DNA from: a virus
Taxonomy: Duplodnaviria; Caudoviricetes
Reading direction: 5' to 3' (one strand)
DNA: 64,000 nt
IMG/VR virus record: IMGVR_UViG_3300035499_000517
Coordinates: 193,735 to 257,734 of that record
Shown here: positions 17,585 to 57,698 of the stretch, in pieces
Position numbering within the stretch: the first letter of the stretch is position 1
Layout of the letters: the number at the start of each line of letters is the position of its first letter
Position numbers and translations under genes: made by a program
Notes under the pieces: generated by a model
The model's input: the letters and a program-made list of their open reading frames with translations, nothing else
Database searches by the model: none
What the model was told of the DNA's origin: nothing

Positions 17585-18775
17585 TAACACAGGCACCCTT
17601 ATGCTGAAAAGCATATGCCAAAACCTCTCTAATTGCGGGGACGAATCCGTAAGCTTCAACTACCAACCGAGAGTGGTGACATTCTTGGGGCAAAGGGTAA
17701 CTCCGGAGATATGGTAATCAAGGTTGAAGTTGGATCAATCGACGCAACGAAGACAGAAAAATTATGAGTATAGTATTAGATTACAAAGAAGCATGGATTT
17801 ATATTAACGGATGTAAAACTAAATACAAGATTGCATCTCCCGGTTATGTATTTATTGCAGAAACTGGAAAGAAGATGGCTGGTGGTTTGGATAAAAATGG
17901 ATACAGGATTGTATCTCTTACTTTTAATGGAAAGAAATATACAAGGAAAGTCCATAGACTCGTTGCCGAGGCATTTATTCCAAATCCTAATAATTATCCT
18001 GAAGTAAATCATGAAGATGGAAATAAGGATAATCCAGACATTCATAATCTGACTTGGTCAACATCAGCAGAAAATACACATCATGCGTATAGGACTCATT
18101 TGAGGAAAGGAAACCTGAAAGATGAGAAGATTGTACGTGAGATTTGTGAAATGCTTCAAAATGAAGTTCGAGTTGGAAAAATATCAAAGAAGATGCAAGT
18201 CAATCAATCATATATCTCTAAAATTAAAAATGGTACGATTTGGAAGAGTGTTTCTAAGGAGTACTATTTTCCAAGAGATAATGATACAAGAGCGTTGATA
18301 GGTGAAGAAAATCCTATGGCTAAAGTCTCTGTAAAGGAGGTAAAGAAAATTTGTAAGTTGTTGGAGAAAGGGAAAACAGCTAAAGAAATTTCGAAAAAGC
18401 TAGGGATATCTATGACGATAATTTACTCTATCAAACAAAGAAAAACTTGGGTAAGCATCAGTAAAGAATATAAGTTCTAAAGGAAAGGTGATTGATATGA
18501 AAAATATAAATCATAAATCCATGCAATCTGTAAATCGCTGATAATTATTTCTGTTGTGTTCAACGACTAGGGAAAGCTAGATATCAGCATTGAGAGAAAT
18601 CTCTAAATACAATTTGTAGGCTGGTTGAAAATAAGGTAGATTGAAATATCTACACGAAGCAAGTAGGCTCAATAATAGAGCGAAATGTAGGCTGAAATAT
18701 GCCCAAACGGGAGGCAATGATATATCTGGTAATAGGATATATAATTGATGATATAGTCTATCCTAGAAATAGGAG
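17585..18775 (+). mobile_element. group I intron gyrB-I1 (1191 nt) with HNH ORF
   Basis: P1 exon GGUGU/IGS GCACC with U.G; AATTGCGGGGA (P), CAACGACTA (R), ATATAGTC (S), P9 TCCTA-GAAA-TAGGA, terminal G; splicing restores frame. Confidence 0.9.
17764..18480 (+). CDS. intron-encoded HNH homing endonuclease
   Basis: KVHRLVAEAFIPNP...VNHEDGNKDN...NLTW plus two C-terminal helical repeats. Confidence 0.9.
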   Translation: MSIVLDYKEAWIYINGCKTKYKIASPGYVFIAETGKKMAGGLDKNGYRIVSLTFNGKKYTRKVHRLVAEAFIPNPNNYPEVNHEDGNKDNPDIHNLTWSTSAENTHHAYRTHLRKGNLKDEKIVREICEMLQNEVRVGKISKKMQVNQSYISKIKNGTIWKSVSKEYYFPRDNDTRALIGEENPMAKVSVKEVKKICKLLEKGKTAKEISKKLGISMTIIYSIKQRKTWVSISKEYKF

Positions 18776-20031
18776 CGGCATCACTGTTACAAACGCACTT
18801 AGTAGCTATTTCTCACTTGAAACTTATCGTGGTGATTACTATCATAAGATTGAGTTTAAAGATGGTCAGAAGGTAGGAGATACCAAAGGAATCCCAACTA
18901 AGAAAGGAAAGAAACATGGTACCATCGTATCATTCATTTCGAATCCTATATATCTTGGTGCTGGAAGTCATCTTCCTTTTGACAAAGTAAGAGAGTGGGT
19001 TACTCTTATGAGTTACCAGCTTGATTACAATATTGAGTTCCATTTGGAGGAATGGGAAGGTCTTAAGATTATTAAGAAGGAAACCATTAAGAGAAAAGAT
19101 TTTTCGGATATGATTTTCTCTTATATCCAAAATCCAAAGGATCTCATTGTACAACCAATCTCTTTATCTGCGAAAGAGAATATCGTAGAGGAGATTAAAC
19201 GAAACATCGTTGATGACAATGGAAAAGTCAAGACGAAGAAAGAAAAGATGAAAAAGCAGGTAAGTCTTTCATTTGCATTCGCTTATGATGAGGGAATGGA
19301 AGTAGACGAAAGGTCTTTTTGTAACTTCACACAAACTGATGATGGTGGTGTTCATGTTGAATCTGTAGAGGAAGTCATCTGCCGGTATTTCCAGCAGCAA
19401 ACAAGAGATTCCTTATCAGAAGCACAAAGAGCAAAGACACCCATCTTATTCCAGGATGTAAAAGCTGGATTAAAGCTTGTAGTAAATCTGTCTACAAATG
19501 CCCAGGTACAATTCATGGGTAATGCAAAGAATCGTATCCAGAATGAGAACTTACGACCAGTTCTTAAAGATATGACATCGAAAGCATTAACAGACTTCTT
19601 TGCAAATGATCAGGCAAGATTACAGGCAATCATTAAAGTAGTAAAAGCAAATGCAAAAGCAAGAATAGAGTTACAGAAAGCAAAGTCAGTAAATGTATCG
19701 AAGAAAGTAGATACGTTTGCAGAGTACGAGTTAGCGAACTTTATCAAGTGCAACAACACCGGAAACAAGTACAAAGAGTTGTTCCTCATTGAGGGACGAA
19801 AGTCAGCTGCAGGTTCCATGGTTAATGGTAGAGATGCAGCTACTCAGGCAATCTTTGGTTTCCGTGGAGTTACTGCAAATGCTTTTAAGAAATCACTTCC
19901 AGAGATTATGGAGAATGGAGAGTGGAAGCAATACGTCAGAGTTCTTCATACTGGAATTGGGCAGTCATTTGATATCCGACGTCTGTATTATAACAAGATA
20001 ATTATATCCACTGACGCGGATATCGACGGAT
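18776..20031 (+). CDS. gyrB: topoisomerase subunit B, exon 2
   Basis: GITVTNALS, HGTIVSF, GGVH, ELFLIEGRKSA, FGFRG, IIISTDADIDG. Confidence 0.9.
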
Positions 20032-20479
20032 TCTGGAGACCATAGTTCGTCTAAAACTTGCTTAACTGCGGGGAAATTTTACCGTGACAGGTAAACGCAT
20101 CTAAGATGTGCTGGTTAAGCTTCAACTACCAACTTGGAATGGTGACAGTCCAAGGGCAAAGGGTAACTCCGGAGATATGGTAATCAAGGTTGAAGATACA
20201 GATAATCGACGCAAGGAAACATCTCACAATGATGAGATATGACTTCAACGACTAGGGAAAGCTAGACAACCAGGATGAGAGAAATCTCTAAATACATTTG
20301 TAGCTGGTTTGAAAATAAGGTAAGTTGAAATACTTACACGAAGCGAGTAGGCCTAAGATAGCAGGCGAAAGGTAGGTTGAAACAAACCGAAACAGCAAGC
20401 TTTATTATATCTGGTAACAGGATATAGTAAATGAAGATATAGTCTGACCTTAATAGAGATATTAAGATTAACACAAGTG
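20032..20479 (+). mobile_element. group I intron gyrB-I2 (448 nt, ORF-less)
   Basis: P1 GACGGAU/GUUCGUC (U.G), P10 ACCAU/AUGGU, AACTGCGGGG, CAACGACTA, ATATAGTC; splicing gives DADIDGYGI...RYMP. Confidence 0.9.
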
Positions 20480-21387
20480 ATGGTATTGGAGTTGGTATTG
20501 CCGGATTTCATGTTCGGTATATGCCAGAAATAGTCGAGCAGGGATTCCTGTATAAGGTATACCCTCCTCTTTACAGAATTGCAGATACTGAGCATCCGTT
20601 TATTGGTAATAGAATGGAGCTTGCGGAAATCTGTATGAAGAAGATTGTCAAGTTCTATAAGGTACGCCTTAATTACCCGAAGTCTGATTATATGAATAAG
20701 TCAGATTTGTGGCAGTTCCTTTATGACACAATTGACTATCTTTCCACAATTAAAGAGCTTTATGATTTCTATAAGATTGATCGTGGACTCATTGAAGTTG
20801 TGATTGCAGGACTCGTTATCTTTGGTGGTATTACCGAAAAGAAGATGGTAGTTCCTGGAACGAATACAACAAGTCATCTTCTCATTGAGAAGAAGTTAAG
20901 TGAGTCTGGATTTGTTCGTGATTTCATGAAGTTTGTACAGAAGAAATATCCAGAAGTAAATCTGGAGAAGAATGTAATCAAAGGTGTTGTAAATGGTGGC
21001 GTTGTTCGTCTCCACATCAATCAGAGATTTGTTAATAAGATCAATGACCTTGTACCAGTTGTACAGAAATATGGTTATGAAGTCTTCAGTAAAGAGAAAG
21101 ATGCGGAAGAGCAGAAGCTTACCATTATGGAGTTCTTAGACAGAACATCAAGACTTACACCAAAGATTATGACACGTTTCAAAGGATTAGGAGAGGCCGA
21201 TGCAGATCAGCTTTGGGATACTACATTAAATCCGGAGAAGCGTAGTTTAGTAAGACTTACATTTGGAGACATCGAACGAGATATCGAGATCTTTAACAAG
21301 TTAAAGTCCGACAAACCAGCTTATCAGAAACAACGAAAAGCGATGTTTGAAGGATATAAGATTCGTCGTGATGATCTTGATAATTAA
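20480..21387 (+). CDS. gyrB: topoisomerase subunit B, exon 3
   Basis: RYMPEIVEQGFLY, PPLY, RFKGLGE, LWDTTLNP; spliced product 843 aa. Confidence 0.9.
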
Positions 21388-21401
21388 GGGAGGTGTTTAA
21401 A

Positions 21402-21800
21402 ATGGCAAGATATACAAGAGAACAACTTATAATACTTCATAGACTTTATCTCGCTCCCACGAATTCTCAGATTAAATTAGGGGTCATTTATCATGACCCC
21501 TCTGGGAGCTTGGAACCATTACAATATGACACAGATCGTAAAGCAGACGATCCGAAGATTATTGTTCCAAAGAAATATTTACGTGTAGATACAGACTTGA
21601 CGTTGTATCCACAGTATGCAATCGATAACTTCCCGAAAGGGCCAATGGATGCATTTTTGATTTATACATTATCTACTAGAGCAGGAGAAGATGGTGGATA
21701 CGAAGGGTATTCTACAATCATCGTCTGTGTTGCAAAAGGTATAAAAGATGACTTGAAGATTGATCATTTATCAGATCATTCTGACATGCCGCTTCGTTAG
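21402..21800 (+). CDS. hypothetical protein between gyrB and gyrA
   Basis: RBS GGGAGGT, ATG at 21402. Confidence 0.75.
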   Translation: MARYTREQLIILHRLYLAPTNSQIKLGVIYHDPSGSLEPLQYDTDRKADDPKIIVPKKYLRVDTDLTLYPQYAIDNFPKGPMDAFLIYTLSTRAGEDGGYEGYSTIIVCVAKGIKDDLKIDHLSDHSDMPLR

Positions 21801-21815
21801 GGAGGTGATTGAAAA

Positions 21816-24209
21816 ATGGCGAAGAAAAAAGTAAATAAAGACGTTGCAAATATGAAGCATAAAGAAGCAAACGAACGGAATGTCGCAGACATTTCAGAAG
21901 AGTGGCTTCTTATATTTGGTGCAAATGTAAATATTGCAAGAATGTCACCAAATATGATTGATGGATTAAAACCAGTAGCAAGAAGAGCATTATATGCACT
22001 TCATACAAATCCGAATCATGGTCTGGTGTTTCGAAAGGTAGCGAGAGCTTCCGCTGATACAATTGCGTTTCATCCTCATGGAGATACGTCAGTATCAGAT
22101 ACAATTTATAACATGGGCTCAAGTTGGGCACAGAATATCATGTATGTAGACCCGCAGGGAAACTTTGGAAATGTACGAGGCGATGCTCCGGCACATCCAC
22201 GTTATCCTGAGGTAAGATTGAGTAGAGCTGCAAACTGGATCTTCTTCAGTGATCTGAAAGATTCCAATGTCCCAATGAGACCTACTTATGATGGAGATAG
22301 TGTAGAGCCGGATTACTTACCTGCTCGTATTCCAACGATCCTTTGTAATCCACAGTTCTCAGGAATTGGCATTGGACTTGCAACAAATATTCCACCGTTT
22401 AATCCGACGGAAGTCTGTAAAGCAACGATCAAGCTAATCAAAGATCCAAACGCAAAGATTCTTCTGATTCCGGATTCTCCGACAGGATGTGATATTGTAG
22501 ATACTGGAAACTTTGAAGCATTGAATGAGTTTGGTGATGATGTCACATTAACAATGCAGGCAACTTATGAGATTGACTACATTGAAAATGTCATCACTGT
22601 AACATCTTTACCGCTTCAGATTTCTGTAGAGCAGGTCATCAAAGCTGTGGTAGATGCAAGAAAAGCAAAGAATGGAGATTTGGACGGACTGATTGATATT
22701 CACGATAATACCGCAGAAGACAGAGTAGAGCTTAAGTTCTTACTTAAGAAGGATGAGAATCCAGATGAGTTCGTTGAAAAGCTTATGAAGAAGCGTACGA
22801 ACTTAAAGAAGTCTTATGCAGTAGAGATTCGTTGTATCGAAGATCTTCAGTCAAAAGTATTTGGTACAAAGGCACTTCTTTTGGAGTGGATTGAGTACCG
22901 GAGAGAATGTGTCAGGGCAATCTACAATAAGAAGCTCATGGATGCATTATCCGAACATCATATGAACGAAGTCTTCTTGTTTGTATTCAATGGAGAGAAT
23001 ATCTCTAAGACAATCAAGATTGCAAAGAGTGCAAGAAACCGAGAAGACATGGAAAAGAACTTCATGAAAGAGTACGGAATCACATCACTTCAGGCAAAGA
23101 CTCTTGCGGCAATGCGTACTTACCAGTATTCCAAGGATGCCTATGCTGGATACAAAGAGCGTAAGAAAGAGCTCGAAGCAAACATCAAAGAGTTCACAGA
23201 GATTCTGGAAGATGACGCTGCTGTTGATGAAGTCATCATCGGACAATTAGAAGAAGCAATCAAACTTTTCTGTGGTCCGAGAAGATCCCAGGTGATCAAA
23301 GCTGGAAAGGTAAAAGAGAAGATTCCGAATACAAAACATCTGATTGGAATCAGTAAAGATGGATATATCAAGAAGCTTGACATTACAGGATCTCCATCCA
23401 TTGGAACTGTAGGAAAGACTTCTCAGGTAATCGTTACAGTGATTTCAAACAGAGATAACTTGTTGATCTTCGATTCTTCAGGAAGAATTAGTCGTGTCGG
23501 TGTATCATCAATTCCAGTAATGGATAAAGATGATCCAGGAATTGAGTTATCCAGATACTTCAAAGCAACTGGAGAACCAATTGCAATCATAAACGAGCAT
23601 GACATGATGGAATCAACAGAAGATATCATTCTGGTTACCGCAAATGGTATTGGTAAACGTGTCAAGATGTCTGAGTTTGCAAAGATCAAAGATTTTAAGG
23701 AATCCATTACATTAAATGATGGAGATTCTTTGGTTGCAGCAATTCCGGCAGGAGATGAGGAGTTTATCATCTATACAAACTTTGGTGATGGAATCCGTTT
23801 GAAAGCTGGAGATATCAAGAGACAAAGCAAGGATGCAAAAGGATTAAGCTTAATTACTTTGCGTGCAAATGAAAAGGTTGTTGGAATTGACTTCTTGGAG
23901 AAAGGGTGTGATAAGTTGCTTTACATCACATCTGCAGGAAGAATGAAGATGACTGAAGGAAAGTTACTTCCACTTATGAATCGAAGGGATGAACCGTTAT
24001 CATTAATTGGATTGGATGCAAACGAGTACCTGGTTGGTGTAAGTTTTGTATCGAAGAAAGATACGGTAAAGGTTTACCGGAGAAAGTCTGAACCAGTTGA
24101 AGTGAAGCTTAAGGATGTACCAGTGACAACACGGGTAGCAAAAGCTGAAAAGATGGTAAAGACACCAAAGGGAGATACCGTAACTGGATTTACGATTATT
24201 CGTGGTTAA
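21816..24209 (+). CDS. gyrA: type IIA topoisomerase subunit A
   Basis: DGLKPVARR, HPHGD, QGNFG, PRY catalytic Tyr, GIGIGLATNIPP, C-terminal beta-pinwheel blades. Confidence 0.92.
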   Translation: MAKKKVNKDVANMKHKEANERNVADISEEWLLIFGANVNIARMSPNMIDGLKPVARRALYALHTNPNHGLVFRKVARASADTIAFHPHGDTSVSDTIYNMGSSWAQNIMYVDPQGNFGNVRGDAPAHPRYPEVRLSRAANWIFFSDLKDSNVPMRPTYDGDSVEPDYLPARIPTILCNPQFSGIGIGLATNIPPFNPTEVCKATIKLIKDPNAKILLIPDSPTGCDIVDTGNFEALNEFGDDVTLTMQATYEIDYIENVITVTSLPLQISVEQVIKAVVDARKAKNGDLDGLIDIHDNTAEDRVELKFLLKKDENPDEFVEKLMKKRTNLKKSYAVEIRCIEDLQSKVFGTKALLLEWIEYRRECVRAIYNKKLMDALSEHHMNEVFLFVFNGENISKTIKIAKSARNREDMEKNFMKEYGITSLQAKTLAAMRTYQYSKDAYAGYKERKKELEANIKEFTEILEDDAAVDEVIIGQLEEAIKLFCGPRRSQVIKAGKVKEKIPNTKHLIGISKDGYIKKLDITGSPSIGTVGKTSQVIVTVISNRDNLLIFDSSGRISRVGVSSIPVMDKDDPGIELSRYFKATGEPIAIINEHDMMESTEDIILVTANGIGKRVKMSEFAKIKDFKESITLNDGDSLVAAIPAGDEEFIIYTNFGDGIRLKAGDIKRQSKDAKGLSLITLRANEKVVGIDFLEKGCDKLLYITSAGRMKMTEGKLLPLMNRRDEPLSLIGLDANEYLVGVSFVSKKDTVKVYRRKSEPVEVKLKDVPVTTRVAKAEKMVKTPKGDTVTGFTIIRG

Positions 24210-24216
24210 AAGAAGA

Positions 24217-24253
24217 AAGAAGCGTGACTAGAAATGGTTGCGCTTCTTTTTTT
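24217..24253 (+). terminator. intrinsic terminator
   Basis: AAAGAAGCGTGACT/GGTTGCGCTTCTTT stem plus T run. Confidence 0.75.
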
Positions 24254-24271
24254 ATCCCAAGAAATCGAAAA

Positions 24272-24283
24272 TACATTTCTTTA
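24272..24283 (+). promoter_or_regulatory. late-type promoter TACA-N6-TA
   Basis: Upstream of 24318. Confidence 0.5.
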
Positions 24284-24317
24284 AGCAAGAACAAACCAAA
24301 GGAAGGAGGAAATCCTT

Positions 24318-25241: not shown

Positions 25242-25315
25242 TCAACCAACTTACAAAATTACTAAACAGAGTGATTCAAAGCGAGTCACTCTGTTTTTCA
25301 TACCTGAAATTCATT

Positions 25316-25329
25316 TATATATTATCTAT
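25316..25329 (+). promoter_or_regulatory. early-type promoter core TATATATTATCTAT
   Basis: Identical to core at 16487. Confidence 0.6.
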
Positions 25330-25364
25330 ATAGAGAATGGATAAATAACTACAAAGGAGGATAA

Positions 25365-25697
25365 TTGATGAGTAAGAAAGACAAAGATCCCGATGATTAT
25401 TGTAAGGGAGGCATTCTCACAAATCGCGCATTAGATTTTGCATCTGTGTGCTTAAGCTCGTATTTAGAGAACTATAAACTTCTTAATTATGATCCTCGTA
25501 TCACGTATGAGAAGAGAGAAAAAGCAATTAAGAAAGTAAGAAAGGGGGTTGAGAAAATTGATGAAGGGAAGTTAAAGAAAGTATTCGTAATGGAAGAACT
25601 CGCAAGACATGCACCGATGATAGAGAAAGATGCGTTATCTTACAATGCATCTCTCAAAGAAAAGGATGAGATTGGTCTCGGTGGTTTTTATGGCTAA
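25365..25697 (+). CDS. hypothetical protein
   Basis: RBS AAAGGAGG. Confidence 0.8.
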   Translation: MMSKKDKDPDDYCKGGILTNRALDFASVCLSSYLENYKLLNYDPRITYEKREKAIKKVRKGVEKIDEGKLKKVFVMEELARHAPMIEKDALSYNASLKEKDEIGLGGFYG

Positions 25698-26166: not shown

Positions 26167-26225
26167 TAGAAACCGTCTAACCAAAAAATAAATCCAATTG
26201 ACAAAATTTAAGGAGGAAAAATAAA

Positions 26226-27107: not shown

Positions 27108-27165
27108 AAAGAGTTAAGTGTTGCCTGGAAACCATCTGGGCAACACTCCTTTTAGGAGGAGAATA

Positions 27166-39119: not shown

Positions 39120-40462
39120 TCAAAATACACCAAAGACATCTCCGTTATTTCCAGATACAACCCCTGGATCATATCCATTTAATTCATCAAATGCATCCAT
39201 GTTTTGTGAACCAAAATCAAAGAATGCATCTTTATCTGGTTCCAGAGTATTATCCAAACCGGCATTATCAATTAAGCCTTTCTTATGTAAGGCTCTTGTC
39301 TTTTCTTGCTCTCTCATGAGAGTTTCTCGGTAAATGTCTTCATAGGAAGGTTTACTTTGTCGTTCAACCTCTAATCGCACTGTATCAATAACAGACTCTG
39401 GCAATGCTGAATAATCGATCTCTTCTGGTCGAAGCATTCCAGTATTTCGTTCTTCCTGCTGATACAATATATCTTCTTTTGAGAATCCAAATACTTCTAA
39501 GTTATTTCCATAATAATAAACATACATGCCAATGAGATATGACATGATACTGTCATCATGGAATCCTACAGCTGCTTGGATCTTTGTTCCTTTCATAACG
39601 AGCTTTGTAATATCTCTTGTGACATTATGCCCAACGAAATCCTCTTTATGAGTCTTAATACGATCAGCCAAGATACTAAACATGACTTCACGAGATCTCA
39701 CATCGGTATAAACACCATAATTAGATTTCTCTTTTGCTTTCTTCTTTAATACAGATTCTACTGTATTTAAATCATCCATTTTCTCTTCTGCAAGTTTTTT
39801 AAACTTATCAAAGTATACTCTACCAGCAATATCAGATTCCATCAGGAATGCAATAACAGAATCACCAACAGAGTTACGCTCGATACAAAGGATTGCTCTT
39901 GGTATATGCTTCTTTACAAGCTCTACAATACACCTGATGAATTCAGGCTCACCAACATAAGAGCATTCGAATTCCGCAACTAATTTTGTTGTATAAGGAT
40001 TTATGATAGACATCGCATTATTATCACCACCGGTTCCTGTAGAACAGTCAATGCCGACAATGTAAGGGATGCCTCGGACAAGTTTTTCGTAGATATTAAG
40101 ACGATAGTATTTACAGATCATGATCGTCTCAATCGGCTTCTTTTCAAGCTCAATGATTCGATCCATATCATCACGATCATAGGGAGAATTAGAAGAACCG
40201 CGAAGTCTTTGTAATAAGATCTCGCGGCGAACAACCAATTTATTATTGATTTTATTGGCAATATTTCTAAACCATTCAAGGGATAATCCAATTTGTTGAT
40301 AAGAGTATTCCATATAAAATACTCCCATCTTATTATCTTTAACAGATAATTCCCTTAACTCATCTATAGATTTATTATAAAATAAATCGTTCCACACTGC
40401 ACATTTTGCAAGAAGCTGTTCTGCCCTTGCACCTGCATCAGTGTCGATGTCTCCAGGCGTTG
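39120..40462 (-). CDS. terL: terminase large subunit, exon 3 (nuclease domain)
   Basis: (S)TPGD, YIVGIDCSTG, DNNA, CIERNSVG, HDDSIMS. Confidence 0.88.
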
Positions 40463-41628
40463 CAATAGTATGAAACTATTTAGACTATATCTTCATCTCT
40501 AAAATAGAGAGCCCCCCGTTTCGGTTTCTTGATATTATCTCACCTACATTTCGTCCTATGATTGGACCTACTCGGTTCAAGCACTTTCTGCTTGCCTTTC
40601 CCTAGTCGTTGAACTTACACCCAATGCTTTTCGAAGATTTCGCACTTTATCACTAACCCTTTTCCCTATTTTGTCTTTTGTCGTTTTACCACCAAAATAT
40701 TTTACAATAGTAGTGGTTTTACAACCTGAAAGTATCATTTCTTTTATTTTATCCTCTTCTTCTTTCGTGAATCTTTTCTTTGTTTGAGATAAAACAGAAT
40801 TTGGTATATCATACTCAGAACTGATTTCTTTATGACGTTTACCGGATTTTATGGAGAATACTAATGCATATATAGCGTTATTTGTAACCTTTGTTTCTCC
40901 AGTTAATGCACAATAAGTTTGAAAACAGTCCATTCCAGATTCAAGGGATTTGCAAATGAATCTAACTACTTCTTCATTATACACTGCATTTGGTGCATTC
41001 ACACCAGAATTTACTTGAAGTCCCATTCGTAATGCATGTCTTGTATTTTCTCCACTTGTAGTCCACTCTAAATTCTTATAATAATTATTCGTTTTATCTC
41101 CGTCCATATGATTCACCACATTCAATTCATCATCATGCTCAGGAAGAAATGTACTTGCGACCATCCGATGAACTGCAACAGGAGATTTTAATCTCTTTCC
41201 ATCAATATGTCGAATGATCCCAATTCGTTTATATCCATCCTTATCATAATGAAATTTCAATTCTTTTACTCTTGAAAAAGAGAATACTTTTCCGTAATTA
41301 GATATTACGTATTGATACTTTACAATTCCAGGGTATTTCAAAAATCTAAATTCTTCATCATCATGTTCTTTAAATTTATAAAATTCTTCTAAAAGTTTAT
41401 TCATGTGAATAATCACCTCCGTTAGATAAAAGTTGTGGTGATAATTATTCACACAAATGGGTGATTAGCTGCGGATCGATCTATCTTTAACCTTGATTAC
41501 CATATCTCCGGAGTTACCCTTTGCCCCAAGAATGTTACCACTCTTGGTTGGTAGTTAAAGATTTTTAGAAAGTCCCCGCAGTTAGAGGGGTTTGTATTAC
41601 AGGTCACCCTGTAATCACGCCGCATTTA
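40463..41628 (-). mobile_element. group I intron terL-I2 (1166 nt) with HNH ORF
   Basis: P1 UCACGU/GCGUGA (U.G), AACTGCGGGG, CAACGACTA, ATATAGTC, P9 AATAGT/ACTATT, terminal G; splicing gives ILTSTPGD. Confidence 0.9.
40577..41404 (-). CDS. intron-encoded HNH homing endonuclease
   Basis: YVISNYGKV, AVHRMVASTF, VNHMDGDKTNN...NLEW; ATG after GGAGGTG; C-terminus overlaps intron core. Confidence 0.9.
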   Translation of the reverse strand: MNKLLEEFYKFKEHDDEEFRFLKYPGIVKYQYVISNYGKVFSFSRVKELKFHYDKDGYKRIGIIRHIDGKRLKSPVAVHRMVASTFLPEHDDELNVVNHMDGDKTNNYYKNLEWTTSGENTRHALRMGLQVNSGVNAPNAVYNEEVVRFICKSLESGMDCFQTYCALTGETKVTNNAIYALVFSIKSGKRHKEISSEYDIPNSVLSQTKKRFTKEEEDKIKEMILSGCKTTTIVKYFGGKTTKDKIGKRVSDKVRNLRKALGVSSTTRERQAESA

Positions 41629-42075
41629 ACGTGAGTATTCGCCCGTAGATTGCTCCGACCTCCGCTGATTTACGTGATGCAGTTTCAAACGTAGATACAG
41701 AGTTTTCAATAATGACATCGATATATGGTGTAAACTCCACCTCATCAAAATGAAGAATTGGTGCAGTCAAACCACGACCCATGCCGAGTGCTGCTTCATA
41801 TGAAATAGCTTTTGCGCGAACAACGATTTCATTTCCTGTAACAGGATGCTGATATCGTGTTGCACTCTTCTTTGATTTGGTAATTTTTCCATCTTCTTCC
41901 ATAATGGATTCGTAACGTAAATATACTGGTAAGCACGATATGATATCACCGAAATCTCTAAGATTTGTCTTTGCATTATCACCATCTTTATTGATGAAGA
42001 TGAATGTTGACTTAGATGTTCCAAATGAATATGCCCATGTTTGTGCTGCTAGTGCTGACTTTGTTTTACCTTGTT
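41629..42075 (-). CDS. terL: terminase large subunit, exon 2 (ATPase)
   Basis: QGKTKS Walker A half, GRGLT, LHFDEVEF Walker B. Confidence 0.88.
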
Positions 42076-42396
42076 CATAACTTAGACTATATCATCATCC
42101 GATTTCTCGGAGCCTCCCATTTCGGATTATTTCACCTACATTTCGCCCTATGATTGAGCCTACTCGGTTCAAGTATTTCTACTTGCCTTTCCCTAGTCGT
42201 TGAAGCTTCGTCTTAATTTCTTAGGATACTTGCTTGCGGATTTTCTCTATTCTTAACCTTGATTACCATATCTCCGGAGTTACCCTTTGCCCCAAGAATG
42301 TCACCACTCTTGGTTGGTAGTTAAGACATAACAAGACGTTCCCGCAGTTAAAGAGGTTTTTCCAATCCATTGCTGGATTTCGCGGCAACAAGGTTC
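42076..42396 (-). mobile_element. group I intron terL-I1 (321 nt, ORF-less, atypical)
   Basis: AACTGCGGGAA, CAACGACTA, ATATAGTC; P10 ACCUUGUU/AACAAGGU; splicing restores LPRQQGKT. Confidence 0.85.
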
Positions 42397-42796
42397 GCCG
42401 AGGTAAACAGAGCCAACTATCTAGTCCGTGTAACAAGCACCAAGTTTGTGCTATATTTCCACGGTTTGCTATATAAGGAACGCCTTCTGGAGAACCAGCA
42501 GATGGTATCCTTACAACTTCCCTTAAATAGTACCAGATATTATGTACGCACTCTATCGTGATTCTTGAAATCTGATCTTTTGTCAGATCAGGTTCATCTG
42601 AATCTTTCTTCGTCTTGAAAGGATCTACATTGACAAGATACGGATCTTTGATCTCAAGCATAAAATACCATTCTTTTACACCAAGAGTTTTTAAGTCCAG
42701 TGCAACTTGCAAGAAGGATTTATTCTTGGTACCAGTATCGTAATATCGTCCTTTAATACAGATAATCCGATTTTTCGGAGTACTTGTATTATCCAT
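42397..42796 (-). CDS. terL: terminase large subunit, exon 1
   Basis: TKNKSFL, ECVHNIWYYLREVVRIP, NRGN, LPR; spliced product 729 aa. Confidence 0.85.
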
Positions 42797-42814
42797 AGTA
42801 TCACTTCCTTTCTT

Positions 42815-42870
42815 TAAAATTAAGTCTTCGAAAATAAATGGCATTTCATCATAGGTTTGACAAGTTTTTA
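42815..42870. promoter_or_regulatory. divergent late-type promoters (- GACT-N6-TA 42815-42826; + GACA-N6-TA 42859-42870)
   Basis: Motif copies before terL and AAA ATPase. Confidence 0.45.
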
Positions 42871-51300: not shown

Positions 51301-51754
51301 ATAAGAAATCCCGCTTGAATGGGAAAATGATGCGGAAGTAATCATCGTAGATCATAATTTTGCAATCCCGTAAGATATGATCATCCATTATGATAACCGG
51401 AAGTTTTGAGAAGATCCTATGATTTCCTGTAATATCAGAAATACCAATCTCTTCTTTATAATAATCCGAGGTTCGATATCTTTCACGAGAACTTACAGTC
51501 ACGAGTTCGGCAGGAATATTTGCACACACGCGCTCTTGTTTGTCCAGATATAAATCTCCGAAATCTGGTTGGGACGTGACATTTCTTGTGGTATAAAAGA
51601 ACTCTTCGTAGACAATTGTGCTTCTCTGTAAACGATACAGATACGAGTACGAATTATCAACAGTCATACGAAGGGCTTTTTCTAATGCCTCACTATCAAA
51701 CGTACCATTAGTAAGAGCAGCCTGTAGAAATTCTTTACTGGATTTTGAAGCCAT
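48350..51754 (-). CDS. large putative virion structural (baseplate) protein
   Basis: 1134 aa, repeated IFVDG/VFYDGR/IYLNGR strands; late promoter. Confidence 0.6.
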   Translation of the reverse strand: MASKSSKEFLQAALTNGTFDSEALEKALRMTVDNSYSYLYRLQRSTIVYEEFFYTTRNVTSQPDFGDLYLDKQERVCANIPAELVTVSSRERYRTSDYYKEEIGISDITGNHRIFSKLPVIIMDDHILRDCKIMIYDDYFRIIFPFKRDFLYEKNFDDTGNNYTYIEHKFSVQIINNTMYADLITNSGMLMRNSEDGASYGRILGTYLTASKVDLSNNYTGSMFAVVYCGDSKYGSMPQDVSIGENGDVYIEYDKETREALMNYTGSLTIRFLFYRYLYPKYGYRKEEGDYESGYIQSRTSPSDEVMSDLFMITDKDEKLYGMPVPTENMILYRNRGDGFTHIENSHIQVNYPNIYRINQDVEENDTYRVYYFYIPPYDLSYKYMYEFYYSYLKYKYPDYSLEKIFNMLYFEDYDLENDSMLSEVPEAEVIIPEEFEDPEESRLGLFYEWASEPENRGKTKEQLKAEFDETHQYDKTVNEMTEEEKAAYLEEQRPIRLADFKKVFDFIVNHPIVNYFYDEIDYTKNYMGKVPPLEYKTRKLEEFIGDNFNALHDYELAKRQVTNKYDFSAEEADLPNRYTEVSVSTGKTLIEPCYVFSISKPDPDNTLTARIFVDGLFISNFIYERSEYCDNLYVPVDQVPDDVTYFEIEVFPTLNQYEVVTFTAENPSVVITFDLTDEIQATLSDLYFFFGTEECLDRISVDNFRLEVVSDDYNAYEVPVELITVYKLSSGAYYNEDGQYFNYEGQNLSEKDITKEELQEKIAAGTVTEGEVKKTTNLFEINRDEDYITFNRVVTQGESIINRDNTGVNFTILNKLKITAISADVMDKELTIAIAKNPYFFTKTAQATCYPIFNVHSENLEPIAEYTRVFYDGRLRSRNRYDFRKFNGILQVRALETLERRSTMSVDITPYRNRLIYYVEQLDSDYVDLRGIIDKPYDNRYYEIYLNGRRLNCFNIFPISPWEIKLAGIHSYYNLEIYQRDTDWEYFDISFDDYYTISDLARESFVERKYKNLIIHDVTGDTAANENTEEKEPWSREDDTYTIMMSMFMYERVTELGLLDPSILQFNQEDILTNYEIIDTLYKVQNDKGEDVYLLNPDNYYKPENPDGEERWRVFLLGNRDPEEFKEGGDDNG

Positions 51755-51785
51755 ATTACATGTTCACATCCTTTCTAATTCTGCT

Positions 51786-51832
51786 TATATCTATGTTTTT
51801 TAAGCATTTTAGCAGCAAAAAACATTGACTTA
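51786..51832. promoter_or_regulatory. divergent late-type promoters (- 51786-51797; + 51821-51832), both AACA-N6-TA
   Basis: Perfect motif on each strand before divergent structural genes. Confidence 0.65.
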
Positions 51833-51867
51833 AGTAGAAAGTAAACTATGAAATGAGGTGAATAAGA

Positions 51868-52827
51868 GTGGGTTATTATACAGAAGCCAGTCTTTCTGAT
51901 TCTACGATGTTTCAGAATTTGAATAAATCTGCGTCATTAATGGCGAAAATTCAAAAGGCAATCAAAAATGGCGTTGCCCTTGATAAAAGTTATTTTGAAG
52001 CCCAGTACTTATTGATCACCAAAACGAATATATCTCCCCTTGCAAATTATGTATTAAGAGCATTTGATGAGGGGAAGATACGATTAATCTACAATAAGAG
52101 AGACCATGTTACAGTGGCTCTTCCCTTTGTAGTACTTACCATTGGTGGTCAAACAACAGCATGTATCTTTATTAATGAATTCTCCGGAATGTCAAAGGGA
52201 GATGACATGCAGCTTACGATTGAAATGAAGAAGCTCTATACGCTTATGGAATCTGCGTATGTTGCTTCTTTGTACTTTACAAAGCCATTGTACTTTACGA
52301 AGAATGCTTCCTTTATAAAAGCAATGGCAAATATCTATTCTCAAATGATTCTTCGGATATTAAACCGCGAGTATGCATTATCGCTTGATAAAGATGCGTT
52401 TGATACAGCAAATTACACATCTGCAAGATTCTTCTATGAGAGAATCTTAGGTCTTACTAATCCGGACCTTGTACATGCATATTCCGTTGCTCTTTGCAAT
52501 AATCCGAGTGAAACAACGATTTCCCTTGCGGATAATATGTATTCTGCAGCAAAGGTGAGAACGATTGATGAATACGTTAATTACACCGCAAAATCTAACC
52601 CAAAGATGGGAGATTTGAAATTCCGGTATTTCTTTGAGCGTTGGGTTGCTTCTTATGGCACCGGTGCGACATTAGCAATCGATTCCTTCCCATATATTTA
52701 CTACTGCATTGCAAATGTACTTTTGGGAGGATTCCTTATCAATTCAACAGCAATGATGGAGTTTATCAAGAATACTAGAGGTATTAACACCTTATATTCT
52801 GAGATTATCCGAATCATTGGTGCTTAG
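51868..52827 (+). CDS. putative virion protein
   Basis: GTG start, RBS GAGGTG; YYTEA motif. Confidence 0.7.
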   Translation: MGYYTEASLSDSTMFQNLNKSASLMAKIQKAIKNGVALDKSYFEAQYLLITKTNISPLANYVLRAFDEGKIRLIYNKRDHVTVALPFVVLTIGGQTTACIFINEFSGMSKGDDMQLTIEMKKLYTLMESAYVASLYFTKPLYFTKNASFIKAMANIYSQMILRILNREYALSLDKDAFDTANYTSARFFYERILGLTNPDLVHAYSVALCNNPSETTISLADNMYSAAKVRTIDEYVNYTAKSNPKMGDLKFRYFFERWVASYGTGATLAIDSFPYIYYCIANVLLGGFLINSTAMMEFIKNTRGINTLYSEIIRIIGA

Positions 52828-52844
52828 AAAGGAGAAATTCGAAA

Positions 52845-53552
52845 ATGAAAGCATTTAATGGATTTATATTAACGAAATATGAAGATCCGGATACTGGTGA
52901 AGTAAAGATGGTGCCTTACTTTCCAATTGTCGATAGTGCAGACATCATCAATACAACACCGGTACAGGCTGATGAAAAACTCACCATGATGTCTGAGCGT
53001 TGGACATTAGCAGAAGGCATTGATGGTATTGATAAAACAAGTTATATTTTTACTTGTAAATATTCAGGATATTCAGGAACAGAAGATGCTGACACGTTAG
53101 AGCAGATTGGTTCTTCGTTCTTGGATGCTGAAGTGCATTACGATTTATACCGGAGTGGAAAACTGGAAGTTTGGGGAATTATCCGTTTGAATGGACAGAA
53201 AGCTTCGTTTGATGATACAAGAGATTTGTATTTAAAGACGTTCTACCTTCCGTTCTCGATCCCTGATAACGTTCCGGTAAGAACTAGTTATGCATTTGGA
53301 CCTGTAGAAGGGTTAAGCTTGGTTTCTTCTTTGTCAACTATCATGGTTACAAATACAAATTTGAACCCGACAAAGTCAAAGAAGAAATACTATGCAAAAC
53401 TTGACATCAAGCAGGTTGTGGAAAAAGAAGCGGGAGTTTTGGATCTGTTTTATAGATCAGCAGATGCAAGCTATTCAGCTTACACTTATGAATCTTATGT
53501 AAACAAGTATTTGCCAATCAGATTTGATATCAATGGACTTACTTGGAAATAA
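52845..53552 (+). CDS. putative tail-fibre-associated protein
   Basis: YRSGKLEVWG...LPFS motif typical of fibre tip domains. Confidence 0.5.
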   Translation: MKAFNGFILTKYEDPDTGEVKMVPYFPIVDSADIINTTPVQADEKLTMMSERWTLAEGIDGIDKTSYIFTCKYSGYSGTEDADTLEQIGSSFLDAEVHYDLYRSGKLEVWGIIRLNGQKASFDDTRDLYLKTFYLPFSIPDNVPVRTSYAFGPVEGLSLVSSLSTIMVTNTNLNPTKSKKKYYAKLDIKQVVEKEAGVLDLFYRSADASYSAYTYESYVNKYLPIRFDINGLTWK

Positions 53553-53567
53553 TTTCAAAATGAGAGG

Positions 53568-53826
53568 TAAGAAGAGGAGACGAGTCATTGTACCCGTCTC
53601 CTCTTTTTCGACTTACCGAGAGGAACTAATCGTTTTGGGATCACAAGATCCCCATCCAGAAGTATAAGGCTTACATACAGCCTTAACTCTATGTTTCTTA
53701 ATAGATTGAGGGGAGAAGAGGCCGACTCTGGGAAGTCGGCCAATGTTTGGGGTTGTTTAAGGAAAAAGTTTCCTGTAACTAAAGATACTTGGAAGTACCA
53801 CACTTTCAAGTAGAGGGTTTCTACTC
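53568..53826 (-). ncRNA. candidate structured non-coding RNA
   Basis: Late-type promoter AACA-N6-TG (53826-53837), string of hairpins, terminator, no credible ORF. Confidence 0.45.
53572..53608. terminator. bidirectional terminator
   Basis: AAGAGGAGACG/CGTCTCCTCTT stem. Confidence 0.75.
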
Positions 53827-53849
53827 ATAATATTGTTTTAGATTAAAAT

Positions 53850-54845
53850 CTAAACCCATTCTACACGATAACGGTTGTGATATTCATCAACCGCAATGCT
53901 TGTACTTCGGTTAATATCCAAATGCTCAACCTGAGGAATTGGATAATCTGATAATTCTTCTCCATCTGCTGCAATTGCACGAAGTTCATACTCATCTGTA
54001 TTATGATCGACAAAAGCAACGAGTTCAACATTTCGATTCTCGTATTTTAAATATGCTTCTGTTTCCGAACGATCATCTTCGGAAGCAAGCATTTGTGCAA
54101 TATTGTCATACAATGTATCTTCATCTGCATCAATCGGTGTTGCATCTCCATAAATGGAAGCATCCGAACGATCCTGTTGAATCAGTTTCTTTAAGAAGTT
54201 GGAAGAGAAATCAGATAGATTCTCTCCATCATAGCTACCAGCTGCGGCAGCCGCTGCTTCTTTTCGCTCCTTCATATTAAGGTCTGCGATATTCTTCTTT
54301 AAGCTTGTGATGTTATTGATAAGCTGACTCGATACACTACGAGATTGGTTAATGGAACTGATAAGATCTGTTGTGAACTTACCAACTCCTCTTGCAGAAG
54401 ATTTCGAAGCCTCCATTGCGTAATAACGCTTCTGTAAGGAATCTGTAAACTTTGTTGCATCCTGAAGCATATTACGCATCAGAGCAATGTCTGTTTCAAA
54501 CTCCTCATTGTAATCTTTGGGGCCTTCTTTTTCTTTCTTTTTCTTCTTCTTTTTCTTACCACTTCCACCGTGTAAGAAGTCATACACATCACTGTTTCGG
54601 TAATTCTTGGAAGCCTTTACTTTTGGAGTACGAAACTGGGATAAGGTGTATTCCCAATCATCGTCTTCCTCTTCCTGATTTGCTTCTGCTAAAGCTTTTG
54701 CTTCCTTATCTTTCTTAACTTCTTTTGGTCGAAATTGATTAAATGACATAGATTGTGTTTCCTGCTCCATCTCATCAAATTCATCCAAAAGAGATTTCTT
54801 TTGTCGCTTCGGTTGATTGGAATAATCCAAAATAATCTTCGACAC
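53850..54845 (-). CDS. hypothetical coiled-coil protein with poly-Lys tract
   Basis: 331 aa; promoter GACA-N6-TA at 54880-54891. Confidence 0.8.
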   Translation of the reverse strand: MSKIILDYSNQPKRQKKSLLDEFDEMEQETQSMSFNQFRPKEVKKDKEAKALAEANQEEEDDDWEYTLSQFRTPKVKASKNYRNSDVYDFLHGGSGKKKKKKKKEKEGPKDYNEEFETDIALMRNMLQDATKFTDSLQKRYYAMEASKSSARGVGKFTTDLISSINQSRSVSSQLINNITSLKKNIADLNMKERKEAAAAAAGSYDGENLSDFSSNFLKKLIQQDRSDASIYGDATPIDADEDTLYDNIAQMLASEDDRSETEAYLKYENRNVELVAFVDHNTDEYELRAIAADGEELSDYPIPQVEHLDINRSTSIAVDEYHNRYRVEWV

Positions 54846-54897
54846 TTGTTAACACCCCTTTCTATATCCTGTTAGGTATTAAAGATATGTCAAACCT

Positions 54898-55203
54898 TTA
54901 AAAATACAAGGGTCGATGATGTGTAAGGACATCAACCTTAAAAGAATCTGGAGGATAATCCTCCTCTATACTAGTATCTTCATGATCTGGAAGTTCATCT
55001 TTGGGATTTTCCAAATCATAATTCAATTGGTTCATAAGATCTACCAAACTTTCATGAAATGCATCACGAAATGCAATAATACGTGGATCTGGATTATAAT
55101 CAACTCGTATTCGAATTCTTAAGTTAGAAATCCTTTCTCTGCAATCAGAATAATGCTTACAACCCAGCTTCCTATCTAATTTCTTCTTTTGTCTTTTATT
55201 CAT
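54898..55203 (-). CDS. hypothetical protein, MNKRQ family
   Basis: Starts MNKRQKKKLDRKLG. Confidence 0.75.
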   Translation of the reverse strand: MNKRQKKKLDRKLGCKHYSDCRERISNLRIRIRVDYNPDPRIIAFRDAFHESLVDLMNQLNYDLENPKDELPDHEDTSIEEDYPPDSFKVDVLTHHRPLYF

Positions 55204-55786
55204 CTTTCTTCTCCATCGTAATATCAAATATAGACTTCAATTGCTCCTTATCAATCTCAGCCTTAACATCTTTTAGTGTTTCAGCTGTTGGATCAAAGAT
55301 TCCCATTTTCGCAGCGCTAACTATTTCCTTTCCAGTTGGATCGGTTGTTACATAGATCATTTCTTTAGCTTCTTTCGGCTGTTCCATCTCGAACTCATCA
55401 TAGATCTGATAGAATGATTTTAATCCATAACCTGTTGGGTTTGGATGCTCATTTAATTTTTCCATTGGTAATGGACCAAGAAGGAATTGACTTGGAACTC
55501 CGAAGATGTTTTTATTTTTATTTACAGCATTGATTCGCTGAATCATCTCACGGATTTCAACTACATCACTAGCTGTACATTCCTGACCCAAATAATCACT
55601 GTGAATGATCTCTTCCTCTCTATTAGGAAATGCTGAAGCGAGAAGTGCTTTCATCGTCTTATCAAACATGGATGCATTCATCATAATAAAATCTTCAGTA
55701 TCCTTTTTACTCTTTGCTTTCTTATAACCTTGATATGTCTTATGACATAACTTCTTTTCGAATTTCTTCATCTGCCTTTTGTTCAT
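55196..55786 (-). CDS. hypothetical protein, MNKRQ family
   Basis: Starts MNKRQMKKFEKKL; RBS AGGAGGT. Confidence 0.8.
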   Translation of the reverse strand: MNKRQMKKFEKKLCHKTYQGYKKAKSKKDTEDFIMMNASMFDKTMKALLASAFPNREEEIIHSDYLGQECTASDVVEIREMIQRINAVNKNKNIFGVPSQFLLGPLPMEKLNEHPNPTGYGLKSFYQIYDEFEMEQPKEAKEMIYVTTDPTGKEIVSAAKMGIFDPTAETLKDVKAEIDKEQLKSIFDITMEKKDE

Positions 55787-56081
55787 TTTGATCACCTCCT
55801 AATACTCTAATTGAATAACTCTTTGATGCCTTTTTCAGCTCAAGTATATTTGGAACACATTCAAATGTCTTACCTTTTGGTATCCACGAATTGCATGAAA
55901 ATTGTATAGTAACAGGTTCACCTTTAACACTGTCAGGTGGAGTACCTACACCATTTATCCTCACCTTTCCAAGGCTTAAATACTCTGAAAACTTTTTACA
56001 GAGTTTCAAATAGGCTTTATATGCGTGATAGGTTTTAAAACCTAATCTCCCTATCAATTTCTTTTTCTGTCTTCTGTTCAT
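55740..56081 (-). CDS. hypothetical protein, MNKRQ family
   Basis: Starts MNRRQKKKLIGRLG; RBS AAGGAGG. Confidence 0.75.
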   Translation of the reverse strand: MNRRQKKKLIGRLGFKTYHAYKAYLKLCKKFSEYLSLGKVRINGVGTPPDSVKGEPVTIQFSCNSWIPKGKTFECVPNILELKKASKSYSIRVLGGDQNEQKADEEIRKEVMS

Positions 56082-56146
56082 TTTAGAATCCTCCTTTTAT
56101 TAAAAGAAGAGTCTCGTGCAAGATAATAACTCACACGAGACTCCAT

Positions 56147-56525
56147 TTACATTTTTGCATATACTTGACGATTCATATCAAATGGTTCAAATGATATATC
56201 AAGACCATCTTCTTCATCATCGTCATCTTCAATCTTTTCTTTGTTAATACCATTCTTATTATGCTTATTTCCCTTATTGTCGGCTGCTACAAATTCAGAA
56301 GCTAAGCTTGTAAGAGAAATAGATTCTTCCAGTTCCACATCATTGATAAGCTTGATAGAGCTACCTTTTGCATACGGATGATTGAAATACTCAAGTTCAC
56401 GCAACTTATCATCTGTATCAGCGGAACGATATCGTCTTTTCAATAGTTTAAACGTCATGTAGACTTCATCAGAACCTAATTTCTTTTCTCGATTTATGAT
56501 AATAACGACATCGCTATTTTCAATG
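56147..56525 (-). CDS. dnaB: DnaB-like replicative helicase, exon 2
   Basis: IENSDVVIIINRE...FKLLKRRY. Confidence 0.85.
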
Positions 56526-57698
56526 CATATATAAATTTTATATGTAGACTATATCTTCATCTTTATACCCTTTTATCAGATATAAAGAGCCACTCATTTC
56601 GGTTTCCCTACTCTACTCGCTTCTTCATCTAAGGATTTCTCCAGAGATTATGCTTTCGATAGTCGTTGAACCGTTCAGAATATCTTTGAATATTAGCCCT
56701 TTTCGAATTTTACTTACCGTTTGCGCTTTTGGTCCGATTTTCTCATGTGGAATCTCAGGCCAAATTATATGTGCAATTTCAGTGTTCTTTTTGCCCTCAG
56801 AGATTAATCTTCTGATTCTAGGAATATTTCTTATCGTTTCCAATTGTGTTTTAGTATACTTGGTATTGCTACTAAAATTATAATCTTTTGATATCTCTTT
56901 CCAGGCAATCCTGTTTTTGATTCGAACTAATAACGTACGATTTGATTTATTATCCTCCATTTTCATTCTTTTTAATATTTCATCATAAGAAAGGTTTTCC
57001 TCAAGATACTTGCAAATTTCTCTAGCTTGATCATCCGTTATAATTGCCCAACAACAATTTTCACCAAATGTATTTATTTCTTTACATTTAAATGCTTTTG
57101 ATACATTTTCGCCGCGGGTTTTCCAACTTAAATTCTTATAATAATTATCTAATCCATTATTATTGAGATGATCTGGTACTAAGTCAGTTCTTCCTTCATA
57201 TTTTTTAGGAATTTTGATAAAACAAAAAGCTACTAATTGATGAACTAAAACCCATTCACCTTTATCATCTTTATTCTTGAGATAAACTGCATAATATGGG
57301 TGATGCTTCTTATTTGCAATCTTTTTATGTAATAACTTCTTACCTTTCTTTATCCTAACATCACCGAGTGATGAAACTTGATAGGTGTTACTTATTATAT
57401 TTTTAAATCCATTTAAAGTTTTCCACATAATTTTTTCCATATAAAAATCTCCTTTCTATTTAAACTATCAAATCGTTACTTAAAATTTTAATTCTGACTT
57501 GGCTGCGGATTGTCCGTATCTTCAACCTTGATTACCATATCTCCGGAGTTACCCTTTGCCCTTATCCTGTCGCCAGATATAAGTTGGTAGTTGAAGCGTA
57601 GCCGGCACATAAAATGTGTCCATTGGTGAAATGGAAAGTCCCCGCAATTAAAGTGGTTATTTTTACACACCTCACGGTATGGGGAGACCATTGAGTTA
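56526..57698 (-). mobile_element. group I intron dnaB-I1 (1173 nt) with HNH ORF
   Basis: P1 GGGAGAU/GUCUCCC (U.G), P10 UCAAUG/CAUUGA, AATTGCGGGGA, CAACGACTA, ATATAGTC; splicing gives GAWEIIENSD. Confidence 0.9.
56625..57440 (-). CDS. intron-encoded HNH homing endonuclease (NUMOD4-like N-terminus)
   Basis: WK...YQVSSLGDVR, LVHQLVAFCF, PDHLNNNGLDN...NLSW. Confidence 0.88.
   Translation of the reverse strand: MEKIMWKTLNGFKNIISNTYQVSSLGDVRIKKGKKLLHKKIANKKHHPYYAVYLKNKDDKGEWVLVHQLVAFCFIKIPKKYEGRTDLVPDHLNNNGLDNYYKNLSWKTRGENVSKAFKCKEINTFGENCCWAIITDDQAREICKYLEENLSYDEILKRMKMEDNKSNRTLLVRIKNRIAWKEISKDYNFSSNTKYTKTQLETIRNIPRIRRLISEGKKNTEIAHIIWPEIPHEKIGPKAQTVSKIRKGLIFKDILNGSTTIESIISGEILR

What the first reader, a model, noticed from the sequence alone, without database searches (positions are those of the whole stretch)
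17585..57698. Five sister group I introns in gyrB, terL and dnaB share an identical 38-nt P5abc block
Seen: GGGCAAAGGGTAACTCCGGAGATATGGTAATCAAGGTT is identical at 17688-17725(+), 20154-20191(+), 41489-41526(-), 42255-42292(-) and 57524-57561(-). P1, P2, P6, P8, P9 and even P/Q core bases differ between the copies. The flanks UACCAA-[GNRA hairpin: GUGA, GUGA, GUGA, GUAA, GCGA, with covarying stems]-...UAUGGUA-AUCAAG resemble the Tetrahymena P5abc domain (P5a, A-rich bulge, P5b), with an enlarged P5c containing a self-complementary CUCCGGAG. All five also carry extensions after the 5' strand of P7. Inference: invariance of a peripheral element suggests a shared trans partner (phage splicing factor, ligand, or intron-intron kissing). 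Such a partner could co-regulate maturation of helicase, topoisomerase and terminase. Ongoing gene conversion is the alternative.
Basis: partly seen in the sequence, partly recalled or inferred. Interest (0 to 1): 0.82.

Follow-up and report, generated by a model that had tools for sequence, protein, structure and literature searches.

The report
Phage introns swapping structural modules
Five self-splicing introns in three essential genes of a jumbo phage share one identical 38-base stretch because it is a tightly constrained folding core of the RNA and because the intron copies exchange parts by DNA recombination, not because a shared partner co-regulates the genes.

Summary
The 38-mer is exact at all five sites. 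Each lies in a complete group I intron; removing them restores GyrB (843 aa), TerL (745 aa) and DnaB (574 aa), three of five junctions matching intron-less alleles. The block is the junction, P5c hairpin and A-rich bulge of a Tetrahymena-like P5abc domain, on an IA-type core with P7.1/P7.2. Here it is no more invariant than the catalytic core. Across phages the 18-nt P5c shows 47 variants among 114 introns with compensatory pairs; the palindrome survives in 25; single genomes mix up to six variants; the same P5c sits in a Brochothrix phage. This argues against kissing or a required trans partner. Best reading: structural constraint plus ectopic recombination. Subgroup and L5c partner unresolved; splicing not shown. 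The scan noted similar intron shuffling on other DNA before.

The parts
17585..18775 (+). gyrB intron 1 (1191 nt), group I, HNH ORF in P6 loop; splits the SSGEFGV-G ATP-lid motif
   Evidence: junction matches intron-less allele L614
20032..20479 (+). gyrB intron 2 (448 nt), ORF-less, no P2, extra stem in P5; just after the Toprim DxD motif
   Evidence: P1/P10 pairing; homolog alignment
42076..42396 (-). terL intron 1 (321 nt), ORF-less, in Walker A; C-G pair at the 5' splice site, no P9 hairpin
   Evidence: intron-less allele L602
40463..41628 (-). terL intron 2 (1166 nt), HNH ORF in P6 loop
   Evidence: intron-less allele L602
56526..57698 (-). dnaB intron (1173 nt), HNH ORF in P6 loop, extra stem in P5
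   Evidence: P1, P10, open frame of 574 aa; no intron-less allele found
17688..17725 (+). 38-nt block: last base of P5b, GG junction, P5c (17691-17708), J5c/5a, P5a 3' strand, A-rich bulge
20154..20191 (+). 38-nt block (P5c 20157-20174)
41489..41526 (-). 38-nt block (P5c 41506-41523)
42255..42292 (-). 38-nt block (P5c 42272-42289)
57524..57561 (-). 38-nt block (P5c 57541-57558)
17764..18480 (+). NUMOD4-HNH-HTH endonuclease ORF, 238 aa
   Evidence: Pfam HNH_3 1.3e-6, NUMOD4 1.8e-5
40577..41404 (-). NUMOD4-HNH endonuclease ORF, 275 aa; its 3' end runs into P6/P7
56625..57440 (-). NUMOD4-HNH endonuclease ORF, 271 aa (weak Pfam hits); 3' end runs into P6/P7
18570..18708 (+). P7.1/P7.2-type extension, gyrB intron 1 (139 nt)
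20255..20393 (+). P7.1/P7.2-type extension, gyrB intron 2 (139 nt)
40518..40602 (-). P7.1/P7.2-type extension, terL intron 2 (85 nt)
42119..42193 (-). P7.1/P7.2-type extension, terL intron 1 (75 nt)
56596..56659 (-). P7.1/P7.2-type extension, dnaB intron (64 nt)
17217..21387 (+). gyrB, exons 17217-17584, 18776-20031, 20480-21387 (843 aa spliced)
39120..42844 (-). terL, exons 42844-42397, 42075-41629, 40462-39120 (745 aa spliced, 99.5% identical to intron-less P0242)
56147..59044 (-). dnaB, exons 59044-57699, 56525-56147 (574 aa spliced)

Best explanation
The five elements are cis-acting self-splicing group I introns of one phage intron family (IA-type core plus P5abc). The 38-mer is the intramolecular folding core of P5abc (three-helix junction, P5c, A-rich bulge), which packs on P4-P6 of the same intron as in Tetrahymena. 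It is identical in the five copies for two reasons. (1) Purifying selection holds it about as tightly as the catalytic core. (2) Paralogous introns recombine at the DNA level: the site-specific shell (P1, P2, P9, P10) stays tied to each exon, while inner modules are copied between loci using the conserved blocks as homology, so one P5c variant goes to fixation in a phage lineage. Shown: sequence, frames, covariation, block swaps. Inferred: tertiary packing, actual splicing, the recombination route, and that conversion contributed to this particular block (no variation is left in it here to prove that).
For: Exon joins restore full proteins and match intron-less alleles. P5a, P5b, P5c covary: 86% of cells paired, 15 of 18 pairs with two-sided changes, 0/500 shuffles; the central P5c pair is paired in 47/47 with three Watson-Crick types and 114/114 in the larger set. 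L5b loop covaries with a P6a receptor: CC at the receptor position in 10 of 24 GNAA-loop introns versus 1 of 74 GNGA-loop introns, the known GNRA/helix rule (own knowledge). Among the five copies P4 5' strand 6/6, R 11/11 and S 11/12 are as invariant as the block. Orthologous introns with 91-100% identical exons and 0-3 differences in 45 nt of P1-P3 differ by 6-8 of 23 nt in P5b, 5 of 26 in P5c, 9 of 30 in P6, with both alleles exactly present in paralogs (G011/G012). In this phage's own species the dnaB intron of G001 carries the P5b of terL intron 1, and the window's terL intron 2 carries the P5b of G001's terL intron 1. P5c identity is 29% within genomes versus 12% between (genomes not independent).
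Against: Within the window's lineage P5c shows no difference between orthologs (0/130), so conversion of the block itself is seen only in G011/G012. Many related genomes are not homogenised (G003: at least six P5c variants), so conversion is incomplete or slow. A few swaps have identical flanks of over 30 nt on both sides, where assembly chimeras cannot be excluded. The loop of P5c is strongly conserved and its partner is unidentified.
Confidence: 0.72

Rival explanations
1. Common descent plus purifying selection alone explain the 38-mer; recombination affects neighbouring stems but played no part in its identity.
For: Block is as invariant as the core; the identical 18-nt P5c also occurs in a Brochothrix herellevirus polA intron; at the gyrB site 1 this P5c type is kept across distant phages where other types dominate.
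Against: 47 P5c variants are tolerated; P5c type follows phage lineage across different P7-extension lineages; a P5c swap is seen at one G011/G012 site.
Confidence: 0.14
2. A shared trans-acting protein or ligand binds P5c and coordinates splicing of gyrase, terminase and helicase mRNAs.
For: The six-base P5c loop is highly conserved (but four of its bases were fixed by my search pattern); no cis partner found; L2 cannot pair with it. Host RNA chaperones aid T4 intron splicing (PMC3984707).
Against: Stem sequence varies compensatorily; different variants 400 nt apart in one gene; same module in phages of Staphylococcus, Brochothrix, Bacillus, E. coli and in giant-virus contigs; introns are optional, intron-less terL and gyrB alleles exist in the same species; family members occupy about 30 site clusters.
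Confidence: 0.06
3. Introns dimerise through the palindrome in P5c.
For: Secondary-structure cofolding favours a dimer by about 14 kcal/mol (ignores tertiary and non-canonical pairs); the commonest single-base variant keeps wobble pairing.
Against: Palindrome in only 25 of 114 introns; broken in an intron of the closest complete relative G002 and in G006/G008; most of its bases are in the covarying P5c stem, not a loop.
Confidence: 0.02
4. Recent spread of one whole intron to five sites.
For: All five belong to one family; shared blocks of 42-56 nt.
Against: Ribozymes are only 58-76% identical; their ORFs about 26-29% identical; four of the five sites are occupied in distant relatives too.
Confidence: 0.03
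5. The shared and swapped blocks are assembly artefacts (repeat collapse).
For: All data are metagenome assemblies; three swaps have long identical flanks on both sides.
Against: Most swaps have 14 nt or less of identity on one side, below any assembly word size; both terL intron 2 alleles and the other gyrB intron 1 allele recur in independent samples; helices stay paired after swaps.
Confidence: 0.03

Closest known systems
Staphylococcus phage K polA intron carrying ORF89/I-KsaIII (AY176327.1) and Brochothrix phage BtpYZU04 polA intron
   Same: 72.6% identity over P3-P6; same 18-nt P5c with the same loop; Brochothrix has the identical P5c 18-mer; HNH ORF in K-type introns.
   Different: Single P7.1-type stem instead of the branched P7.1/P7.2 extension; HNH ORF placed after P3, not in P6.
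E. coli phage rV5 terL intron 1 (DQ832317.1)
   Same: P5abc plus minimal P7.1 and P7.2 hairpins, same P7 and P3 strands, terminase host gene; RF00028 84.9 bits.
   Different: Fully paired P5c with another loop; no elaborated P7 extension.
Tetrahymena LSU intron (IC1) P5abc domain
   Same: P5a/P5b/P5c junction with AA opposite GG, A-rich bulge, GNRA loop on P5b docking on P6 (comparison from own knowledge of the P4-P6 sequence and structure).
   Different: P5c longer with a purine-rich internal loop; bulge 7 nt; helical receptor instead of the 11-nt receptor; no L5c-L2 pairing; IA-type P7 extension; no P2.1, P9.1, P9.2.
Multiple related introns in T4 (td, nrdB, nrdD), Twort orf142 and Jug gut phages
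   Same: Several similar group I introns in essential genes of one phage; Twort orf142 introns 2 and 3 are highly similar (PMC10136302); Jug phages average 18.5 introns, terL split, splicing confirmed by RNA reads (PMC12880540). Domain shuffling between T4 introns was shown experimentally (Bryk and Belfort 1990, from memory, not retrieved).
   Different: T4/Twort introns are IA2 without P5abc (own knowledge); natural, genome-wide module exchange traced between orthologs was not found in the papers I could search.

Membership tests
Group I intron | P3-P7 core with P, Q, R, S elements | tested here: met
   All five have P4, P6, P7 and P3 strands; RF00028 hits on the two ORF-less ones, E 5.5e-9 and 4e-7, below gathering score.
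Group I intron | U-G wobble at the 5' splice site in P1 | tested here: inconclusive
   Met in four; terL intron 1 has C-G, also in three relatives. Rare C-G cases are known (own knowledge).
Group I intron | Terminal G and in-frame exon ligation | tested here: met
   5/5 end in G; frames restored; three junctions match intron-less alleles.
Group I intron | Guanosine-dependent self-splicing | not testable with these tools
Indirect: P1 covaries with synonymous exon changes in gyrB intron 2.
P5abc domain (Tetrahymena type) | P5a, P5b, P5c three-helix junction with A-rich bulge | tested here: met
   Covariation in all three helices; folding.
P5abc domain (Tetrahymena type) | GNRA loop L5b docking on P6a/b | tested here: met
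   Loop and receptor covary; sequences not independent.
Subgroup IC1 | Short J7/3 without P7.1/P7.2; L5c-L2 pairing; P2.1, P9.1, P9.2 | tested here: not met
   64-139 nt extension; L2 is a GNRA loop or absent; 3' tails hold one hairpin or none.
Class IA | Extra stems (P7.1/P7.2) between P7 and P3 | tested here: met
   minimal two-hairpin form in rV5.
Subgroup IA3 versus IA2 | P7 signature | tested here: inconclusive
   A-U pair with bulged C in 42 of 53 family introns; only 1 of 12 archaeal IA3 and 0 of 27 IB4 introns have it (PMC6125680 supplement).
Subgroup IA3 versus IA2 | Best score against GISSD subgroup covariance models | not testable with these tools
   Models not available; no paper describing IA3 peripheral elements could be retrieved.
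Mobile intron with homing endonuclease | Endonuclease ORF in a loop and existence of intron-less alleles | tested here: met
   HNH/NUMOD4 ORFs in three P6 loops; intron-less terL and gyrB site 1 alleles.
Mobile intron with homing endonuclease | Cleavage of the intron-less site | not testable with these tools
   Needs biochemistry.

The most novel reading that the evidence does not exclude
In these jumbo phages the 5-24 paralogous introns act as one recombining pool of ribozyme modules, and the invariant blocks flanking P6 give a routine route by which a homing endonuclease gene is cleanly removed from, or moved into, an intron at another locus, leaving a working ribozyme.
Probability: 0.35. 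Interest if true: 0.6.

Novelty: new variant of a known kind. Interest (0 to 1): 0.42.

Why it matters
It turns a striking repeat into a natural record of how group I introns evolve in phages: a site-bound shell and exchangeable inner modules. It offers a testable route for clean gain and loss of homing endonucleases (P5b was swapped in 6 of 8 endonuclease-discordant ortholog pairs versus 1 of 9 others), and a large natural variant set for P5abc, the best-studied RNA folding domain, on a core type where it has had little study. It gives no evidence for a new regulatory system.

Tried and rejected
The window's own genome is not held. Plasmids gave one weak hit: no IStron link. Searched for a complement of the P5c loop in L2 and elsewhere: none shared by the five. 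RNAalifold recovered P5a and P5b but not P5c; Vienna folds only its top three pairs; the P5c model rests on covariation. A tree of the ribozyme without the block is only rough, as the sequences are mosaics. Searches for papers on IA3 peripheral structure and on T4 intron domain shuffling found nothing usable; Twort, Coxiella and Staphylococcus jumbo phage papers were not held. A U-G junction for terL intron 1 was rejected: it inserts four residues into Walker A. Caveat: my patterns fixed six of the 18 P5c positions, so their invariance is not a result.
Full report
Observation. The 38-mer is present exactly at the five stated places and has no further near copy in the window. Each copy lies between the P4 5' and 3' strands of a complete group I core. 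Host genes are gyrB (two introns), terL (two) and dnaB. A tubulin-like ORF at 14082-15395 and homologs on 200-280 kb contigs point to a phiKZ-like jumbo phage; some contigs with the block are labelled human gut. The host is unknown.

Boundaries. Scoring junctions against intron-less homologs and reading P1/P10 gives introns at 17585-18775, 20032-20479, 42396-42076, 41628-40463 and 57698-56526, all ending in G. Spliced GyrB is 843 aa, TerL 745 aa, DnaB 574 aa. An intron-less terL allele of the same species is colinear over 2238 nt and 99.5% identical in protein, and confirms both terL junctions; an intron-less allele confirms gyrB site 1. Three introns carry NUMOD4-HNH ORFs in the P6 loop, about 26-29% identical to each other.

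What the block is. It comprises the last base of P5b, two G's opposite two A's at the junction, an 18-nt P5c, the P5a 3' strand and the A-rich bulge. This matches Tetrahymena P5abc in order and in several bases (own knowledge). On a gapless alignment of 47 family members, 86% of cells pair and 15 of 18 pairs show two-sided changes; P5c alone exceeds all shuffles and slid controls in cells paired and covariation score. The window's variant has three purine-purine oppositions where other variants have Watson-Crick pairs. The P5b loop covaries with a receptor in P6a: CC in 10 of 24 GNAA introns, 1 of 74 GNGA introns. So the domain most likely folds back on its own P4-P6 (inference). A model of this module also hits introns of phage K, rV5, Grass, a Brochothrix phage and giant-virus-like contigs, with or without P7 extensions. 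The partner of the P5c loop was not found; it cannot pair with L2 as in Tetrahymena.

How invariant is it? Among the five copies the catalytic elements are equally fixed (P4 5' strand 6/6, R 11/11, S 11/12). The exact 38-mer is in 14 loci of other viral contigs. But the family holds 47 P5c variants among 114 distinct introns, the palindrome in 25. Complete relatives mix variants: G003 at least six, G011 six among 23 introns. Conspecific orthologs have single changes in the bulge part of the 38-mer. A model search finds 7, 11, 2, 24 and 16 family members in five complete genomes, at about 30 site clusters. The trio of genes is therefore not special, and the introns are optional.

Recombination between paralogs. 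In 12 ortholog pairs of G011/G012, exons differ by 2% and the P1-P3 shell by 1%, but P5b by 13%, in blocks: four pairs differ at 6-8 of 23 P5b bases, with both alleles exactly present at other loci; the same holds for P5 strands, one P5c, one P6, and several P7.1/P7.2 and P8 stems. In the window's species, terL intron 2 keeps P1 and P2 and a closely similar 3' half, but its P4-P6 domain is replaced; the dnaB intron of G001 has the P5b of terL intron 1. Whole-intron replacement would change the shell, point mutation would not recreate paralog alleles, and most tracts have too little identity on one flank for assembly chimeras; both allele types recur in independent samples. P5b was swapped in 6 of 8 pairs discordant for the endonuclease and 1 of 9 others (Fisher p 0.015, pairs not independent), and some ORF-less P6 stems equal or nearly equal a paralog's. 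This suggests endonuclease loss or gain by conversion across P6 (inference).

Mechanism. Shown: introns, structure by covariation, mosaic alleles. Inferred: self-splicing in cis with P5abc as folding scaffold; homing by HNH nickases at cognate sites (PMC12908238 for the general scheme); repair or replication-linked recombination that uses conserved blocks of paralogous introns as homology; selection keeping only swaps that preserve helices. Together these fix one P5c variant per lineage.

Comparison. Group I membership is met except for activity and one C-G splice pair. IC1 membership fails. Class IA is met by the P7 extension; IA2 versus IA3 is unresolved. Over half of catalogued viral group I introns are IA2 (PMC11835236). 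Intron-rich gut jumbo phages are published (PMC12880540), similar sister introns in Twort too (PMC10136302), and T4 intron domain shuffling is recalled from the older literature but was not retrieved. Earlier notes of this scan report comparable shuffling in other viruses and further introns elsewhere in this genome; I did not test those.

Verdict. Real feature, correct structural reading, unsupported regulatory inference. A new variant of a known kind, of moderate interest for its unusually clear ortholog-versus-paralog evidence.

Noticed in passing
window 42076-42396 (-): terL intron 1 has a C-G pair at the 5' splice site and no P9. The C is forced by the protein (Gln codon; U would make a stop) and is shared by three relatives and the intron-less allele.
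   Followed up: yes
window 20032-20479 (+); L610, L614: gyrB intron 2 lacks P2; its guide sequence differs between conspecifics in step with synonymous exon changes.
   Followed up: partly
G011 and G012 (L582-L593): Two 250-kb jumbo phages hold 24 and 16 introns of this family, up to seven within about 2 kb, with very short exons.
   Followed up: partly
L378, L401, L408, L426: Introns with the same P5abc but no P7 extension and very short P3-P8 regions; L408 and L426 seem to lack a P8 stem altogether.
   Followed up: no
window 40577-41404 and 56625-57440 (-): The endonuclease ORFs end inside the ribozyme core (P6, P7, P7.1).
   Followed up: no
window 14082-15395 (+), 21816-24209 (+): Tubulin/PhuZ-like gene and a gyrA next to gyrB; chimallin not looked for.
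   Followed up: no
L371:1465-1540 (Brochothrix phage BtpYZU04): Unannotated group I intron in polA with the identical 18-nt P5c.
   Followed up: partly
L610:2863-3488: A conspecific gyrB has a gap of about 620 nt between called ORFs at intron 1, ORF-less version of that intron with a paralog-like P6.
   Followed up: partly
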